From NCBI GenBank assembly GCA_017482195.1, contig JAFUNM010000006.1, positions 1,184-65,183 of the forward strand: a DNA stretch of 64,000 nt, written 5' to 3'. Source of the DNA: Clostridia bacterium. Lineage in GTDB: Bacteria; Bacillota; Clostridia; Oscillospirales; QAKW01. A program made the translations under genes and the position numbers. Positions within the stretch are counted from its first letter, which is position 1, and every line of letters starts with the position of its first letter. Below, in pieces: positions 3,051-52,582 of the stretch. The notes beneath the pieces are model-generated. The model did no database searches, was not told the DNA's origin, and saw only the letters and a program-made list of their open reading frames with translations.

Positions 3051-3237
3051 AGAAAATTCCTCCTTATTTTTTCTATTCCCATTATACTTCATTATAACAT
3101 CATTTTCAAGGATTGAAATGTACAAATTCAATAAAAATATGGAGAAATCTCCTGAGTTCAAGACTTATGAAAATTGCTCAATTTTTTAAGCCGGAATCAA
3201 GGATAATTGGCGCCTTGGACGAAATGTTCTTTTTCTA

Positions 3238-3266: not shown

Positions 3267-3275
3267 ATTGATAAT

Positions 3276-3445
3276 GATAGAGGTGCACTTGCATCATCAG
3301 TATTTTTGCCTATGGCGCTTTGCCGAAAGCGAGGCAGGAAGAAAGGGATGGGTGCCGAAGACGGTTTACGGCAAAAAACCGATCTGGCAGCAGAAAATAA
3401 GAGTTCTGTTGCTGTCGCAGGAACTGCGGAGCGCTATCTTCCTAT
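3276..3445 (+). promoter_or_regulatory. Lysine riboswitch (L-box)
   Basis: GATAGAGGTGC at the 5' end, an AGTAT loop-E-like element, GAAAGGGATGGGTGCCGAAG core, and 3' GCTGTCGCAGGAACTGCGGAGCGCTATCT. These match the conserved L-box blocks of the B. subtilis lysC and T. maritima leaders (AGAGGUGC ... GUCGCCGAAG ... CUGUCA..GGAGAGCU). It sits upstream of dapA-dapB-lysC-lysA. The track ORF 3238..3525 is therefore not coding. Confidence 0.85.
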
Positions 3446-22874: not shown

Positions 22875-22903
22875 ATTATATAACATTTACATTGGAATTT
22901 CAA
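22875..22903 (-). promoter_or_regulatory. Promoter of the solute-binding lipoprotein gene
   Basis: On the minus strand: TTGAAA, a 17-nt spacer, then TATAAT. Confidence 0.6.
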
Positions 22904-45278: not shown

Positions 45279-45307
45279 TTGAAAAACGGCAGCGGCAACG
45301 ATATAAT
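45279..45307 (+). promoter_or_regulatory. Promoter of the 1-phosphofructokinase gene
   Basis: TTGAAA, a 17-nt spacer, then TATAAT, back-to-back with the divergent promoter. Confidence 0.6.
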
Positions 45308-49940: not shown

Positions 49941-49947
49941 AAATAAG

Positions 49948-49979
49948 AAAACCGTTCCCTGTTTGGGGAGCGGTTTTTT
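49948..49979 (+). terminator. AGCS gene terminator
   Basis: AAAACCGTTCCC tgtttg GGGAGCGGTTTT followed by TTC. Confidence 0.8.
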
Positions 49980-50012: not shown

Positions 50013-50041
50013 TTGAAAGTTGAAAAAAGATGCTATATAAT
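50013..50041 (+). promoter_or_regulatory. Promoter of the NifU-like/GGGtGRT pair
   Basis: TTGAAA, a 17-nt spacer, then TATAAT. Confidence 0.65.
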
Positions 50042-50087
50042 AAAAGCGTATGTGCAAATAGCATAATTTTTGGAAGGAGAATCAATC

Positions 50088-50780
50088 ATGAACTACTCAC
50101 ATGAGGTTGAAAGTATGTGCGTAGTAGCCAAGGGTCCCCATCATGGTCCCGCTCCCATTCCCGAAGAGGGAAAATGGGTAAAGGCTACCCAGATCAGCGA
50201 TATCAGCGGTCTTTCCCACGGTATCGGCTGGTGCGCACCCCAGCAGGGCTGCTGCAAGCTGACCCTGAATGTTAAGGAAGGCATCATCGAAGAGGCTCTG
50301 GTAGAGACCCTGGGCTGCTCCGGTATGACCCACTCTGCTGCTATGGCTGCTGAGATCCTTCAGGGCAAGACCCTGTTGGAAGCTCTGAATACCGACCTGG
50401 TCTGCGATGCCATTAATGTGGCAATGCGCGAGATCTTCAAGCAGTTGGTATACGGCCGCACTCAGACCGCCTTCTCCGAGAACGGTCTCCCTATCGGCGC
50501 CTCTCTGGAGGACCTGGGCAAGGGCTTACGTTCCCAGATCGGTACCATGTTTGCTACCAAGGTAAAGGGCGTTCGTTACATGGAAATGGCAGAAGGTTAC
50601 ATTCTGAAAGTAGCTCTGGATGCCAACAATGAGTGCATTGGTTATCAGTTTGTTCACCTGGGCAAGATGATGGATATGATCCGCAAGGGCGCCGACCCCA
50701 AGGATGCTTACGAGAAGAATGTGGGCACCTACGGTCGTTTCGATGAAGCGGTCAAATACATCGATCCCAGAGAAGAATAA
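50088..50780 (+). CDS. NifU/IscU-N-like Fe-S scaffold domain protein with C-terminal extension
   Basis: GLSHGIGWCAPQQGCCKLTLNVKEGIIEEALVETLGCSGMTHSAAMAAEILQGKTLLEAL follows the IscU pattern (G..C..C.L.L.V....I..A.F...GC....AS.S...E...GK...EA). ATG 50088 follows GGAAGGAGA. Confidence 0.65.
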   Translation: MNYSHEVESMCVVAKGPHHGPAPIPEEGKWVKATQISDISGLSHGIGWCAPQQGCCKLTLNVKEGIIEEALVETLGCSGMTHSAAMAAEILQGKTLLEALNTDLVCDAINVAMREIFKQLVYGRTQTAFSENGLPIGASLEDLGKGLRSQIGTMFATKVKGVRYMEMAEGYILKVALDANNECIGYQFVHLGKMMDMIRKGADPKDAYEKNVGTYGRFDEAVKYIDPREE

Positions 50781-50797
50781 GGAAGGAGGAATATTCA

Positions 50798-51796
50798 ATG
50801 GCTACTTTTGAAGGTTATGAGAGAAGAATCGGCAAGATCCAGCCCGTATTGGAGCAGTATGGCTTCGCTACCCTGGATGAGGCAAATGAGTATTGTTTGT
50901 CCAAGGGCATTGATGTTGCCTCCATCGTAAAAGGCGTTCAGCCCATCGCGTTTGAGAATGCTTGCTGGGCATACACCCTGGGTGTTGCCATCGCGCTGAA
51001 GAACGGCGATAAGTCCGCTCCCGACGCAGCAAGAGACATCGGTATCGGTCTGCAGGCGTTCTGCATCCCCGGTTCCGTTGCTGAGACCAGAAGCGTAGGC
51101 TTGGGTCACGGTAATCTGGCTGCTATGCTGCTGGAAGAAGAGACCAAATGTTTCTGCTTCCTGGCAGGTCATGAGTCCTTCGCTGCTGCGGAAGGCGCCA
51201 TCGGTATTGCCAGAACCGCCAATAAGGCTCGTAAGGAGCCCCTGCAGGTCATCCTGAACGGTCTGGGCAAGGATGCTGCTTACATCATCTCCAGAATCAA
51301 CGGTTTCACCTATGTAGAGACCGATTATGATTTCTACACCGGTGACCTGAAGATCGTCAACACCACCGCTTATTCCGACGGTGACAAGGCAAAGGTTCGC
51401 TGCTACGGTGCAAATGATGTTTCCGAGGGCGTTGCAATTATGAAGCATGAGCACGTGGATGTATCCATCACCGGTAACTCCACCAACCCCACCCGCTTCC
51501 AGCACCCCGTTGCCGGCACCTATAAGAAATGGTGCGGCGAGAACGATAAGAAGTACTTCTCCGTTGCTTCCGGCGGCGGTACCGGCAGAACCCTGCACCC
51601 CGACAATATGGCTGCAGGCCCCGCTTCCTACGGTCTGACCGATACCATGGGCAGAATGCACGGTGACGCACAGTTCGCCGGCTCTTCTTCCGTTCCTGCT
51701 CACGTTGAAATGATGGGTCTCATCGGCGCTGGTAATAACCCCATGGTCGGTATGACTGTGGCTTGTGCTGTTGCTGTTATGGAAGCCCTGAAGTAA
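50798..51796 (+). CDS. GGGtGRT-family protein (function unknown)
   Basis: Contains the eponymous motif in ...YFSVASGGGTGRTLHPDN.... 332 aa, which I recall as typical for this family. AAGGAGG RBS. Confidence 0.8.
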   Translation: MATFEGYERRIGKIQPVLEQYGFATLDEANEYCLSKGIDVASIVKGVQPIAFENACWAYTLGVAIALKNGDKSAPDAARDIGIGLQAFCIPGSVAETRSVGLGHGNLAAMLLEEETKCFCFLAGHESFAAAEGAIGIARTANKARKEPLQVILNGLGKDAAYIISRINGFTYVETDYDFYTGDLKIVNTTAYSDGDKAKVRCYGANDVSEGVAIMKHEHVDVSITGNSTNPTRFQHPVAGTYKKWCGENDKKYFSVASGGGTGRTLHPDNMAAGPASYGLTDTMGRMHGDAQFAGSSSVPAHVEMMGLIGAGNNPMVGMTVACAVAVMEALK

Positions 51797-51815
51797 GTTT
51801 TTACTTGAAACATTT

Positions 51816-51852
51816 TAAAAACCTCTTTGGCAACCGCCAAAGAGGTTTTTTT
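51816..51852 (+). terminator. Terminator after the GGGtGRT gene
   Basis: AAAAACCTCTTTGGC aacc GCCAAAGAGGTTTTT followed by TTTC. Confidence 0.85.
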
Positions 51853-51864
51853 CGGAGAGATAAA

Positions 51865-52257
51865 ATGAATAAAAAAATTGAAGAAGCAATGAAATTGCAT
51901 GATATGGGTTTCAACTGTGCCCAGGCGGTGGCAATTCCTTTTTGCGAGGAACTGGGCGTAGACCGCAAGACTGCTATGATGGCAATGGAGGGCTTTGGTG
52001 CCGGCATGGGCGGAAGAACCCAGACCTGCGGTGCCCTTTCGGGCGTAATCTTTCTGGCAGGTCTTAAGAACAGCGACGGCAATTTAGAAGTCCCCACCTC
52101 CAAGAAGAACACCTACGCCATCTGCGCGGACCTTTGCAAAAAATTTGAAGCCGAATGCGGCTCCACCGTTTGCCAAGAGATCAAGAGCCTCAATAAGCGC
52201 TCCTGCAATGAGTGCATCGGCGATGGCATTGCCTTGGCGGAAGAACTCTTGAAGTAA
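51865..52257 (+). CDS. C_GCAxxG_C_C-family putative redox-active protein
   Basis: GFNCAQAV ... GGRTQTCGALSGVIFLAG ... ECGSTVCQEI ... RSCNECI. ATG 51865 follows GGAGAGA. Confidence 0.65.
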   Translation: MNKKIEEAMKLHDMGFNCAQAVAIPFCEELGVDRKTAMMAMEGFGAGMGGRTQTCGALSGVIFLAGLKNSDGNLEVPTSKKNTYAICADLCKKFEAECGSTVCQEIKSLNKRSCNECIGDGIALAEELLK

Positions 52258-52258
52258 A

Positions 52259-52534
52259 ATGAACACCTTTCTCAAATTAGAAAAACTGACTGCCCTTGCC
52301 AAAGGCGATGAGAACCTGCGCCGCGCATTATTGGCAACCGCGAAAACTGAAGAGCCTCTTTGGACATTTTGCAAAATCGCCCAAGAAGCAGGCATCGACC
52401 TCTTCCCGGGGGAGCTTTTTGCCATCGGGCAGGAATATTCCGACAACCAATGCAAAAGCACCAACGGCGGAAATCCCTCCCCTTACTCTGCCTTTGACGA
52501 TGCTTATGAGAATTTCATCGAATCGTTGAGATAG
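52259..52534 (+). CDS. Small Nif11-domain protein (leader-peptide-like, with internal Gly-Gly)
   Basis: LEKLTALAKGDENLRRALLATAKTEEPLWTFCKIAQEAGIDLFPGEL fits the Nif11 N-terminal domain pattern, followed by ...QCKSTNGG|NPSPYSAFDDAYENFIESLR. The ATG lies 1 nt after the stop of the upstream gene. Confidence 0.55.
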   Translation: MNTFLKLEKLTALAKGDENLRRALLATAKTEEPLWTFCKIAQEAGIDLFPGELFAIGQEYSDNQCKSTNGGNPSPYSAFDDAYENFIESLR

Positions 52535-52553
52535 TGTAAATTTACACCGATAG

Positions 52554-52582
52554 AAACGCCTCTTTTGAGGCGTTTTTCTTTT
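52554..52582 (+). terminator. Terminator after the Nif11-like ORF
   Basis: AAACGCCTC tttt GAGGCGTTT followed by TTCTTTT. Confidence 0.85.

What the first reader, a model, noticed from the sequence alone, without database searches (positions are those of the whole stretch)
50013..52582. Cluster of four uncharacterised Cys-rich families: NifU-like, GGGtGRT, C_GCAxxG_C_C and a Nif11-like small ORF
A consensus promoter (TTGAAA-17-TATAAT) drives two genes:
- A 230-aa protein whose core follows the IscU/NifU-N scaffold pattern (WCAP..GCCKL..GCSG).
- 17 nt downstream, a 332-aa protein carrying the literal GGGTGRT motif that names a family of unknown function. It also has conserved-looking Cys/His (FCIPGS, KCFCFLAGHES, HGDAQFAGSSSVPAH).

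After a strong terminator come two more genes:
- A C_GCAxxG_C_C-type putative redox protein (NCAQ, TCGALSG, C..C).
- A 91-aa Nif11-domain ORF that starts 1 nt after the previous gene's stop.

None of these families has an experimentally defined role as far as I know. Their adjacency suggests a metallocluster- or redox-dependent system in which the scaffold-like protein serves the GGGtGRT protein, but this is inference. I rank this as the best candidate in the window for undescribed biochemistry.
Basis: partly seen in the sequence, partly recalled or inferred. Interest (0 to 1): 0.7.

Follow-up and report, generated by a model that had tools for sequence, protein, structure and literature searches.

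The report
Conserved IscU-like/GGGtGRT gene pair, function unknown
Two of the four genes form a strongly conserved, probably highly expressed operon (an iron-sulfur-scaffold-like protein plus the "GGGtGRT" protein) whose function is still unknown, while the other two genes are chance neighbours found only in this species.

Summary
Three family assignments hold: NifU_N (borderline), GGGtGRT (full length) and C_GCAxxG_C_C. The "Nif11" call for the 91-aa ORF is below threshold.

The four-gene "system" is not supported. In 80 loci from other species the IscU-like gene lies directly upstream of GGGtGRT in 79, and the 80th is cut by a contig end. The C_GCAxxG_C_C gene and the 91-aa gene are present in none. 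In a sister species synteny ends exactly at the GGGtGRT stop codon.

The real unit is promoter, IscU-like gene (230 aa), GGGtGRT gene (332 aa), terminator.
- It is under extreme purifying selection: dN/dS 0 and 0.007, against 0.08-0.13 for neighbouring genes. Isolates from other phyla are 67-74% identical.
- It has the strongest codon bias of 48 long ORFs in the window.
- Published omics show it is abundant and repressed in low iron in two phyla. Papers from 2024-2025 still call its function unknown.

GGGtGRT has no solved homologue by sequence or fold. Its partner has an IscU fold and invariant Cys49/77/106, but lacks the labile Asp, the LPPVK motif and a neighbouring desulfurase gene.

Best reading (about 0.4): an obligate two-subunit Fe-S enzyme. 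Main rival (about 0.3): a new Fe-S assembly or carrier module. It is a known unknown, not new to this window.

The parts
50013..50041 (+). sigma-70-type promoter TTGAAA-17-TATAAT of the A-B operon
   Evidence: It matches 11 of 12 consensus bases. The exact pattern occurs 4 times in the window against 0.02 expected. It lies 47 nt upstream of the A start codon and after the terminator of the upstream symporter gene (49946-49979).
50072..50079 (+). ribosome-binding site GGAAGGAG of gene A
   Evidence: Read directly from the sequence, 8 nt before the ATG at 50088.
50088..50780 (+). gene A: 230-aa IscU-fold protein with an N-terminal extension and a C-terminal domain of about 110 aa
   Evidence: - Family scores: NifU_N 23.5 bits against a cutoff of 22. 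hhalign to E. coli IscU gives 86% probability over residues 56-104.
- Fold: the 46 best Foldseek matches are all IscU or SufU.
- Conserved residues: C49, C77, C106 and H44 are invariant; C56 and H82 are at 99%.
- Selection and expression: identical in protein to the sister-species copy, dN/dS 0. ENC 37.3, rank 2 of 48.
50781..50789 (+). ribosome-binding site GGAAGGAGG of gene B, inside the 17-nt A-B spacer
   Evidence: Read directly from the sequence. The tight spacing is repeated in the related loci.
50798..51796 (+). gene B: 332-aa GGGtGRT protein (PF14057)
   Evidence: - Family: 641.8 bits over the full model.
- Model: AF2 pLDDT 77, pTM 0.79. It shows a helical N-terminal domain, a Rossmann-like alpha/beta domain, and a low-confidence segment at 257-299 that carries GGGTGRT...HPDN...RMH.
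- Solved relatives: no Foldseek match in the PDB at E <= 0.001. No PDB relative by sequence or profile.
- Conserved residues: H104, H125, H267, H288 and H302 are invariant. No Cys is invariant.
- Selection and expression: dN/dS 0.007. ENC 32.2, rank 1 of 48.
51817..51852 (+). intrinsic terminator ending the A-B operon
   Evidence: A perfect 15-bp stem with a 4-nt loop and a U run; -24.4 kcal/mol, z = -5.4, and 0 of 200 shuffles fold as well. Synteny with the sister species ends at the B stop codon just upstream.
51865..52257 (+). gene C: 130-aa C_GCAxxG_C_C protein. A neighbour, not part of the conserved unit
   Evidence: PF09719 98.1 bits and TIGR01909 57.9 bits, both above cutoff. Absent near the pair in 80 of 80 other loci. 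ENC 47.7. No sigma-70-type promoter was found between B and C.
52259..52534 (+). gene D: 91-aa conserved hypothetical protein of Clostridia, with a sub-threshold Nif11-like N-terminus. A neighbour, not part of the conserved unit
   Evidence: 243 homologues were found, none with a Pfam domain. The core DNQCKSTNGGNP-PY is invariant. Nif11 matches are all below cutoff. Homologues elsewhere have no C gene next to them.
52552..52577 (+). intrinsic terminator after gene D
   Evidence: Stem of 11 pairs followed by a T run.

Best explanation
**The unit.** It is a self-contained two-gene operon: promoter 50013-50041, gene A, gene B, terminator 51817-51852. I propose that it encodes an obligate two-subunit iron-sulfur protein made in large amounts when iron is plentiful.

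**Subunit A.** It uses an IscU-type fold to hold an Fe-S cluster. The likely ligands are the invariant C49, C77 and C106, with C56, H44 or H82 completing the site. The labile Asp ligand of true scaffolds is replaced, and the chaperone-docking LPPVK loop is deleted. I therefore infer that the cluster is held permanently, as a redox or catalytic centre, rather than passed on.

**Subunit B (GGGtGRT).** It would supply the substrate site. The predicted Rossmann-like sheet carries invariant Gly-rich loops at its strand ends (AGHES, NGLGKD, ITGNST, SGGGTGRT), and five His are invariant. This suggests that B binds a phosphorylated metabolite or cofactor.

**The disordered but conserved segments.** The most conserved segments of both proteins are the ones a monomer model cannot place. 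I infer that they fold only in the A-B complex or around the cofactor.

**What is shown and what is inferred.**
- Shown: the operon structure, the obligate pairing, the IscU fold, the residue conservation, the purifying selection and the codon bias. The iron-dependent abundance is shown by published work.
- Inferred: cluster binding by A, complex formation, and an enzymatic rather than an assembly role.
- I put about 0.75 on "two-subunit Fe-S protein" and about 0.4 on "enzyme with a permanent cluster".

**Genes C and D.** They are unrelated passengers.
For: **Obligate pairing**
- A lies directly upstream of B on the same strand in 79 of 80 loci. The exception is truncated 64 nt upstream of B.
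- The same holds in Vibrio and Parabacteroides, and in the 52-55% identical divergent pair, where the two genes overlap.
- No third gene is conserved nearby: the best Pfam family covers 5 of 135 neighbouring proteins, and the most frequent blastp cluster (PduL-like) occurs in 9 of 80 loci.

**Fe-S binding by A**
- The fold is IscU-like.
- C49, C77, C106 and H44 are invariant.
- IscU Asp39 aligns with Cys or Ala, and A has no 11-residue LPPVK-His segment between NTD and Cys106.

**Behaviour as an abundant iron consumer**
- Clostridium pasteurianum: GGGtGRT is 7.1-fold and the adjacent NifU-related protein 2.4-3.7-fold higher with excess iron. PFOR, hydrogenase and rubrerythrin move the same way, and flavodoxin the opposite way (PMC5395762).
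- Bacteroides thetaiotaomicron: BT0173-74 falls 11- to 12.8-fold on iron depletion (PMC10434189).
- In this window, B and A have the strongest codon bias of 48 ORFs and lower dS than their neighbours.

**Enzyme-like features of B**
- 102 of 332 positions are invariant, including 5 His and the Gly-rich loops that follow the predicted strands.

**Metabolic hints**
- Transposon hits in BT0173-4 came out of the same screen as pfkA (bioRxiv 10.64898/2026.04.10.717545).
- The divergent pair is flanked by two phosphoglycerate-mutase-type genes. This is a single locus.
Against: - No IscU-fold protein is known to me to serve as a permanent cluster subunit. Every characterised member acts in Fe-S assembly or sulfur transfer.
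- No substrate can be named. There is no conserved metabolic neighbour.
- B. thetaiotaomicron insertion mutants grow normally on glucose, and the regulatory effect is only 2-fold.
- The model of A is poor (pLDDT 54), and the motif region of B is unmodelled. The geometry of the cluster site and of the ligand site is therefore not established.
- No relation of B to PfkA, FtsZ or MogA was detectable. "Phosphate-binding loop" rests on topology alone.
- Repression in low iron also fits a housekeeping assembly system, such as E. coli ISC (background knowledge).
Confidence: 0.4

Rival explanations
1. A-B is an unrecognised Fe-S cluster assembly, carrier or repair module of anaerobes. A would be a true IscU-type scaffold that builds or carries a transient cluster. 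B would be its dedicated non-PLP partner, acting as iron donor through its invariant His and carboxylates, or as a loading or release factor. It would be the iron-replete counterpart of SUF.
For: - The IscU fold is known only from Fe-S biogenesis, and all of the top 46 fold matches are IscU or SufU.
- Three Cys are invariant, as in IscU.
- The extreme conservation resembles that of the ISC core, which contacts many clients (background knowledge).
- The pair is dispensable in B. thetaiotaomicron, which I recall has SUF (background knowledge, not checked here).
- It falls in low iron, as E. coli ISC does.
- B has five invariant His.
Against: - No cysteine desulfurase family is among the 25 most frequent Pfam families of the 135 immediate neighbours.
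- A has no LPPVK motif, no His105 equivalent, and no labile Asp39.
- The NCBIfam scaffold equivalogs score far below cutoff.
- The abundance and codon bias are those of a bulk metabolic protein.
- B resembles no known biogenesis factor.
Confidence: 0.3
2. A-B is an abundant protective or storage protein of anaerobes. It might buffer iron or sulfide, or defend against oxygen, peroxide or nitrosative stress, as rubrerythrin or ferritin do. It would not be a metabolic enzyme.
For: - It is induced by iron, as storage and protective iron proteins are.
- It is abundant yet dispensable in vitro.
- In Parabacteroides it is flanked by TlpA, OsmC and nitroreductase genes.
- Flavodiiron-type neighbours occur in 3 of 135 neighbouring proteins.
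Against: - The neighbour associations are rare and were not tested statistically.
- No PerR, Fur or Rex operator is enriched upstream.
- The large number of invariant polar residues in B looks more like a specific active site than a storage surface.
Confidence: 0.12
3. One reading: all four genes (NifU-like, GGGtGRT, C_GCAxxG_C_C and the 91-aa ORF) form one metallocluster or redox system.
For: - All four genes lie on the same strand within 2.5 kb.
- No separate sigma-70 promoter was found for C-D, whose ATG lies 13 nt after the terminator hairpin. Some read-through co-transcription in this strain therefore cannot be excluded.
Against: - C and D are absent near the pair in 80 of 80 loci and in relatives whose B is 99%, 95% and 86% identical.
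- Synteny breaks at the B stop codon.
- A strong terminator separates the two gene pairs.
- Their codon-bias classes differ.
- D homologues occur without C.
Confidence: 0.03

Closest known systems
IscU / NifU-N / SufU Fe-S scaffold and sulfur-transfer proteins (PF01592)
   Same: - The core fold of A (residues about 40-125) matches: Foldseek probability 1.00, with about 2.5 Å rmsd over about 96 columns to Methanothrix IscU.
- A is 45% identical to E. coli IscU over 49 columns.
- The GC(S/G) Cys that aligns with IscU Cys63 is invariant, and there are three invariant Cys in all.
   Different: - A is 230 aa against about 130. It has a conserved N-terminal extension and a C-terminal domain of about 110 aa.
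- IscU Cys37 aligns with Gln, and the nearby invariant Cys is shifted to position 49.
- Asp39 is replaced.
- The LPPVK-His105 segment is deleted.
- The equivalog models fail (26.6 bits against 187.9).
- The partner gene is GGGtGRT, not a cysteine desulfurase.
GGGtGRT family (PF14057), e.g. B. thetaiotaomicron BT0173 and C. pasteurianum F502_05012
   Same: - B is a full-length, high-scoring member (641.8 bits).
- It has the same adjacent NifU-like partner as BT0173-74 and F502_05012/05017.
   Different: Nothing functional distinguishes this copy. The family itself has no assigned function, no solved structure and no detectable superfamily.
C_GCAxxG_C_C putative redox proteins (PF09719 / TIGR01909)
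   Same: Gene C passes both curated cutoffs.
   Different: It is not linked to the A-B pair outside this species. The family is itself uncharacterised.
Nif11 domain / Nif11-type RiPP leader peptides (PF07862 / TIGR03798)
   Same: The helical N-terminal 45 residues or so of D give weak matches in 18 of 32 family members, and a GG lies in the conserved core.
   Different: - All scores are below cutoff.
- The C-terminal "core" is invariant, not hypervariable.
- No maturase or peptidase-transporter gene lies next to it in the three contexts examined.

Membership tests
GGGtGRT (PF14057) | Full-length match to the Pfam model above the gathering score | tested here: met
   641.8 bits against a cutoff of 27. 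Residues 4-330 match model positions 1-327 of 327.
GGGtGRT (PF14057) | Literal GGGTGRT motif | tested here: met
   Residues 259-265. G259-G261, G263, R264 and T265 are invariant in alignment A6; P0386, which departs from the motif, looks frameshifted.
IscU/NifU-N scaffold (PF01592; TIGR01999, TIGR03419) | Score above the curated cutoffs | tested here: inconclusive
   Pfam gives 23.5 bits against 22, over 46 residues only. Most close relatives carry no precomputed Pfam hit. The NCBIfam equivalogs score 26.6, 23.4 and 19.9 bits against cutoffs of 187.9, 192.4 and 92.5, so they are not met.
IscU/NifU-N scaffold | IscU three-dimensional fold | tested here: met
   The Foldseek top 46 matches are all IscU or SufU, E down to 3e-5 and probability 1.00. 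This comes from a low-confidence model (pLDDT 54, core 55-69).
IscU/NifU-N scaffold | Three cluster-ligand Cys (E. coli C37, C63, C106) | tested here: inconclusive
   C77 aligns with C63. C49 and C106 are invariant, but they are not in register with C37 and C106: C37 aligns with Gln53, and C106 follows an 11-residue deletion.
IscU/NifU-N scaffold | Labile Asp39 ligand, His105, and the LPPVK chaperone-binding motif | tested here: not met
   The Asp39 position is Cys in the window and Ala in most relatives. NTD is followed directly by LV-C106, with no LPPVK and no His.
IscU/NifU-N scaffold | Genomic association with a cysteine desulfurase (IscS, NifS or SufS) | tested here: not met
   No aminotransferase class V family is among the 25 most frequent Pfam families of the 135 immediate neighbours. 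The invariable neighbour is GGGtGRT.
IscU/NifU-N scaffold | Binds and transfers an Fe-S cluster | not testable with these tools
   This needs anaerobic biochemistry.
C_GCAxxG_C_C (PF09719 / TIGR01909) | Score above the curated cutoffs, with the Cys pattern | tested here: met
   98.1 bits against 27, and 57.9 against 47.4. NCAQ, TCGALSG and the C-terminal Cys pair are present.
Nif11 domain / Nif11-leader RiPP precursor | Score above the curated cutoffs | tested here: not met
   PF07862 scores 13.1 bits against 23.8, and TIGR03798 scores 14.8 against 32.3. 18 of 32 relatives give weak hits, the best at E = 0.0038.
Nif11 domain / Nif11-leader RiPP precursor | Variable core peptide and adjacent maturation or export genes | tested here: not met
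   The core DNQCKSTNGGNP-PY is invariant. The neighbours are a lipase, a P-type ATPase, an unknown protein and others, with no maturase.

The most novel reading that the evidence does not exclude
The IscU-like/GGGtGRT pair is a new kind of iron-sulfur machinery that is widespread in anaerobes. One form would be a desulfurase-independent Fe-S assembly or carrier system, with GGGtGRT as a new type of iron- or cluster-handling partner. The other would be a very abundant Fe-S enzyme with a new fold, acting on a central phosphorylated metabolite. In either case a major protein of gut and rumen bacteria would gain a function.
Probability: 0.3. Interest if true: 0.85.

Novelty: new member of a known kind. 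Interest (0 to 1): 0.5.

Why it matters
GGGtGRT and its IscU-like partner are repeatedly detected, and in one study reported as highly expressed, in gut and rumen metaproteomes. They respond strongly to iron in two phyla. They are conserved at a level comparable to translation factors. Even so, they have no function, no solved structure and no detectable superfamily.

This work shows three things. The unit is exactly two genes. The putative cluster ligands lie in the IscU-like subunit and not in GGGtGRT. The flanking "redox" genes are irrelevant. Together these results narrow the experiment to co-expression of two proteins. Solving the pair would either add a new branch to Fe-S biogenesis or fill a gap in anaerobic central metabolism. 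The window itself adds no new kind of element: the pair is already annotated in many genomes.

Tried and rejected
**The four-gene system.** Rejected.

**A conserved third partner or informative neighbourhood.**
- blastp clustering and a Pfam scan of 135 flanking proteins found nothing.
- The most frequent blastp cluster, PduL-like, is in 9 of 80 loci.
- The best Pfam families, SecA and PduL (PTAC), are at 5 of 135 proteins.

**Natural A-B fusions, for modelling the complex.**
- The longer database entries (P0002, P0003, P0013, P0014, P0126) are assembly chimeras with internal duplications.

**Relating the GGGTGRT loop to known motifs.**
- I tested the tubulin/FtsZ GGGTG(S/T)G motif, the PFK/NAD-kinase GGDG(S/T) motif and the MogA GGTG motif. 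hhalign probabilities were 1% or less.
- The Foldseek matches to PFK, USP and MGS-type alpha/beta domains are generic: TM 0.27 or less and E 0.05 or more.

**Sequence and profile searches of the PDB for B.** Only a chance guanylyl-cyclase hit, at E 0.018-0.14.

**Sub-domain Pfam scans at E <= 10.** Nothing found.

**Known operator motifs upstream of 62 orthologous operons** (Rex, Fur, PerR, FNR/CRP, HcpR, IscR, CodY, cre, NsrR).
- The apparent Rex and IscR enrichments were AT-rich noise and the reverse complement of the ribosome-binding site.

**Rfam.** No riboswitch or RNA element near the locus.

**The structure model of A.** Too poor (pLDDT 54) to interpret beyond the IscU core.

**P0386, a "47% identical" representative.** It looks frameshifted and was not used.


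Full report
**1. What is in the sequence**

The region holds four ORFs on the + strand, exactly as described.
- A: 50088-50780, 230 aa.
- B: 50798-51796, 332 aa.
- C: 51865-52257, 130 aa.
- D: 52259-52534, 91 aa.

The A-B spacer is 17 nt and contains GGAAGGAGG. D starts 1 nt after C's stop. All quoted peptide motifs are present.

The promoter TTGAAA-17-TATAAT lies at 50013-50041 and matches 11 of 12 consensus bases. The exact pattern occurs four times in the window against 0.02 expected, so it is a real promoter form in this genome. It follows the terminator of the upstream sodium:alanine symporter gene (49946-49979).

After B there is a perfect 15-bp hairpin with a U run at 51817-51852. It folds at -24.4 kcal/mol, z = -5.4. 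A second terminator follows D (52552-52577).

No sigma-70-type promoter was found between B and C. C's ATG lies only 13 nt past the hairpin, so C-D may depend on read-through or on a promoter type that the scan does not see. The only Rfam element in the window is a lysine riboswitch far away.

**2. Family assignments**

- B is a full-length GGGtGRT protein: PF14057, 641.8 bits.
- C passes both C_GCAxxG_C_C models: 98.1 bits against 27, and 57.9 against 47.4.
- A is borderline for NifU_N. It scores 23.5 bits against 22 over residues 57-102 only, and it is far below every NCBIfam scaffold equivalog.
  - Its core does have the IscU fold. PDB sequence hits are all IscU, NifU or SufU.
  - hhalign to E. 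coli IscU gives 86% probability and 45% identity over 49 columns.
  - The 46 best Foldseek matches to the model, which is of low confidence, are all IscU or SufU.
- D has no Pfam hit. Nif11 and the Nif11-leader model stay below cutoff for D and for all 32 relatives scanned.
  - D is nevertheless a real, conserved small protein of Clostridia.
  - It has 243 homologues and an invariant core, DNQCKSTNGGNP-PY.

**3. What belongs together**

A scan of one genome per species found at least 598 GGGtGRT loci. The best 80 were kept.
- In 79 of the 80, an A homologue (E about 1e-108 to 1e-137 where complete) lies immediately upstream on the same strand. The exception is cut by the contig end 64 nt upstream of B.
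- None of the 80 has a C or D homologue within 6 kb.
- No other neighbour recurs.
  - The most frequent blastp cluster is PduL-like, in 9 of 80 loci.
  - The best Pfam families cover 5 of 135 flanking proteins.

The pairing also holds in a Vibrio chromid and in Parabacteroides, where a 63-aa ORF is annotated between the two genes. It holds in the most divergent pair found, where A' is 55% and B' 52% identical and the two genes overlap.

Close relatives show that C and D are passengers.
- A sister species is 82% identical in DNA over 5 kb. It has the same upstream genes and the A-B pair, but synteny ends exactly at the B stop codon.
- Relatives whose B is 95% and 86% identical also lack the C-D arrangement.
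- D homologues at about 65% identity sit next to unrelated genes, without C.

The conserved unit is therefore A-B only. The four-gene cluster is a local accident.

**4. Properties of the pair**

*Conservation*
- Against 1.84 billion 50%-identity representatives, the top 150 hits contain only two or three full-length clusters. The rest are fragments or chimeras.
- Isolates from other phyla are 67-74% identical: Collinsella, Parabacteroides, Bacteroides, Persicobacter and Vibrio.
- Against the sister species, A is 100% and B 99.4% identical in protein.
- The neighbouring genes NagA, LuxS and the symporter are 79-87% identical.
- dN/dS is 0 for A and 0.007 for B, against 0.08-0.13 for the neighbours. 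dS is also lower, 0.4-0.47 against 1.05-1.2.

*Expression*
- B (ENC 32.2) and A (ENC 37.3) rank first and second for codon bias among 48 long ORFs in the window. The median is 46.3. C scores 47.7 and D 55.5.

*Published behaviour*
- C. pasteurianum: GGGtGRT is 7.1-fold and the adjacent NifU-related protein 2.4-3.7-fold higher under iron excess. PFOR, hydrogenase, aconitase and rubrerythrin change the same way (PMC5395762).
- B. thetaiotaomicron: BT0173-74 falls 11- to 12.8-fold on iron depletion (PMC10434189).
- B. thetaiotaomicron: transposon insertions in BT0173-4 raise a Cur-dependent reporter 2-fold in glucose without a growth defect. They came from a screen that also hit pfkA (bioRxiv 10.64898/2026.04.10.717545).
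- It was detected in a rumen metaproteome (PMC7035244).
- A monoclonal antibody raised against Segatella copri recognises it (PMC12078515).
- The 2024 paper calls the protein poorly characterised, and the 2025 paper states that its function remains unclear.

**5. Anatomy**

*B*
- The model has pLDDT 77 and pTM 0.79.
- It shows a helical N-terminal domain (residues 1-112) and a Rossmann-like alpha/beta domain (118-257).
- Strands in the alpha/beta domain are followed by invariant loops: AGHESFAAAEG, NGLGKDAA, ITGNSTNP and SGGGTGRT.
- The segment 257-299 (GGGTGRTLHPDN...GRMH.DAQFAGSSSVPAH) is the most conserved part of the protein, but it is modelled with pLDDT about 30.
- No PDB structure matches at E <= 0.001, and TM is 0.27 or less. 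Sequence and profile searches of the PDB find nothing.
- Across 85 sequences no Cys is invariant: C118 99%, C33 95%, C89 94%, C202 92%, C120 41%.
- H104, H125, H267, H288 and H302 are invariant.

*A*
- C49, C77, C106 and H44 are invariant. C56 and H82 are at 99%, H19 at 96% and C11 at 83%.
- Against IscU, Cys63 aligns with C77, Cys37 aligns with Gln53, and Asp39 aligns with position 55, which is Cys here and Ala in most relatives.
- The LPPVK-His105 segment between NTD and the last Cys is missing.
- The conserved N-terminus (1-40) and the linker (121-169) are also unmodelled.

**6. Interpretation**

The cluster-binding residues lie in A, not in B. The two proteins are made from one tightly spaced operon and co-vary in every genome examined. 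Their most conserved segments cannot be folded as monomers. I conclude that they form an obligate complex carrying an Fe-S cluster on the IscU-like subunit (about 0.75).

I favour a holoenzyme with a permanent cluster (about 0.4) over a transient scaffold (about 0.3). My reasons are:
- the loss of the labile Asp, of LPPVK and of any desulfurase linkage;
- an abundance and codon bias typical of bulk metabolic proteins;
- iron-sparing regulation in step with Fe-S enzymes;
- the enzyme-like density of invariant polar residues in B.

The assembly rival remains serious. The IscU fold has no known non-biogenesis use, ISC components are similarly hyper-conserved, and the pair is dispensable in B. thetaiotaomicron, which I recall has SUF (not checked here). 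A protective or storage role (about 0.12) rests on sparse neighbour hints.

The metabolic hints are suggestive only. They are the pfkA co-isolation and the phosphoglycerate-mutase-type genes that flank the one divergent pair.

**7. Comparison with what is known, and novelty**

This copy is an ordinary member of PF14057, with its usual NifU-like partner. The adjacency is already visible in the annotation of B. thetaiotaomicron, C. pasteurianum and Parabacteroides. The window therefore contains a new member of a known, uncharacterised kind.

A should not be filed as an IscU or NifU scaffold. Several defining features were tested and not met: the equivalog scores, Asp39, His105 with LPPVK, and the desulfurase neighbour. 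It may still work like one.

**8. Verdict**

The coordinates, motifs, promoter, terminators and three of the four family calls hold.
The pair is real; the four-gene system is not.
- Interest is 0.5. It is a well-defined, important known unknown, sharpened here to a two-protein problem, but neither surprising nor specific to this window.

Noticed in passing
window 52259-52534 (gene D) and alignment A4: D belongs to a small family confined to Clostridia, with 243 hits. It has a weakly Nif11-like helical N-terminus and an absolutely invariant C-terminal core, DNQCKSTNGGNP(S/T)PY..F.D.Y. The genomic context varies and no maturase lies nearby. This is the reverse of the RiPP pattern, in which the leader is conserved and the core varies. 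The function is unknown.
   Followed up: partly
window 3270-3444 (+): Lysine riboswitch aptamer: Rfam RF00168, 92.8 bits, full length.
   Followed up: no
window 3081-3109 (-), 22875-22903 (-), 45279-45307 (+), 50013-50041 (+): The exact pattern TTGAAA-N17-TATAAT occurs four times in 64 kb against 0.02 expected by chance. These are probably strong promoters of this organism.
   Followed up: no
window 51797-51865: C's start codon lies 13 nt after the terminator hairpin of the A-B operon, and no sigma-70-type promoter was detected for C-D. Synteny with a sister species (L090) ends exactly at the B stop codon. C-D and the lipase gene may therefore be an insertion expressed by read-through.
   Followed up: partly
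L091 1581-7589: The most divergent pair (A' 55%, B' 52% identical) sits between an ApgM-type phosphoglycerate mutase-like gene (PF01676 and PF10143) and a His_Phos_1 phosphatase or mutase gene. Two unannotated genes of 304 aa and 326 aa are tightly packed around it, and an IS66 transposase lies nearby. This is a single locus, so it is only a lead towards phospho-metabolite chemistry.
   Followed up: partly
L087 4800-4991 (Parabacteroides distasonis): An extra 63-aa hypothetical ORF is annotated between the NifU-like and GGGtGRT genes. The operon is flanked by TlpA disulfide reductase, OsmC and nitroreductase genes.
   Followed up: no
P0002, P0003, P0013, P0014, P0126 (database proteins): The over-long GGGtGRT and NifU-like entries in metagenome assemblies contain internal duplications of near-identical segments. 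They are assembly chimeras of co-occurring strains, not fusions. Many "representatives" at 50% identity are fragments or are frameshifted, for example P0386.
   Followed up: yes
window 50088-51796 against L090: Synonymous divergence of A and B (dS 0.40-0.47) is less than half that of the adjacent genes (1.05-1.20). This fits selection on codon usage in very highly expressed genes. Recent recombination of the pair between species was not excluded.
   Followed up: partly
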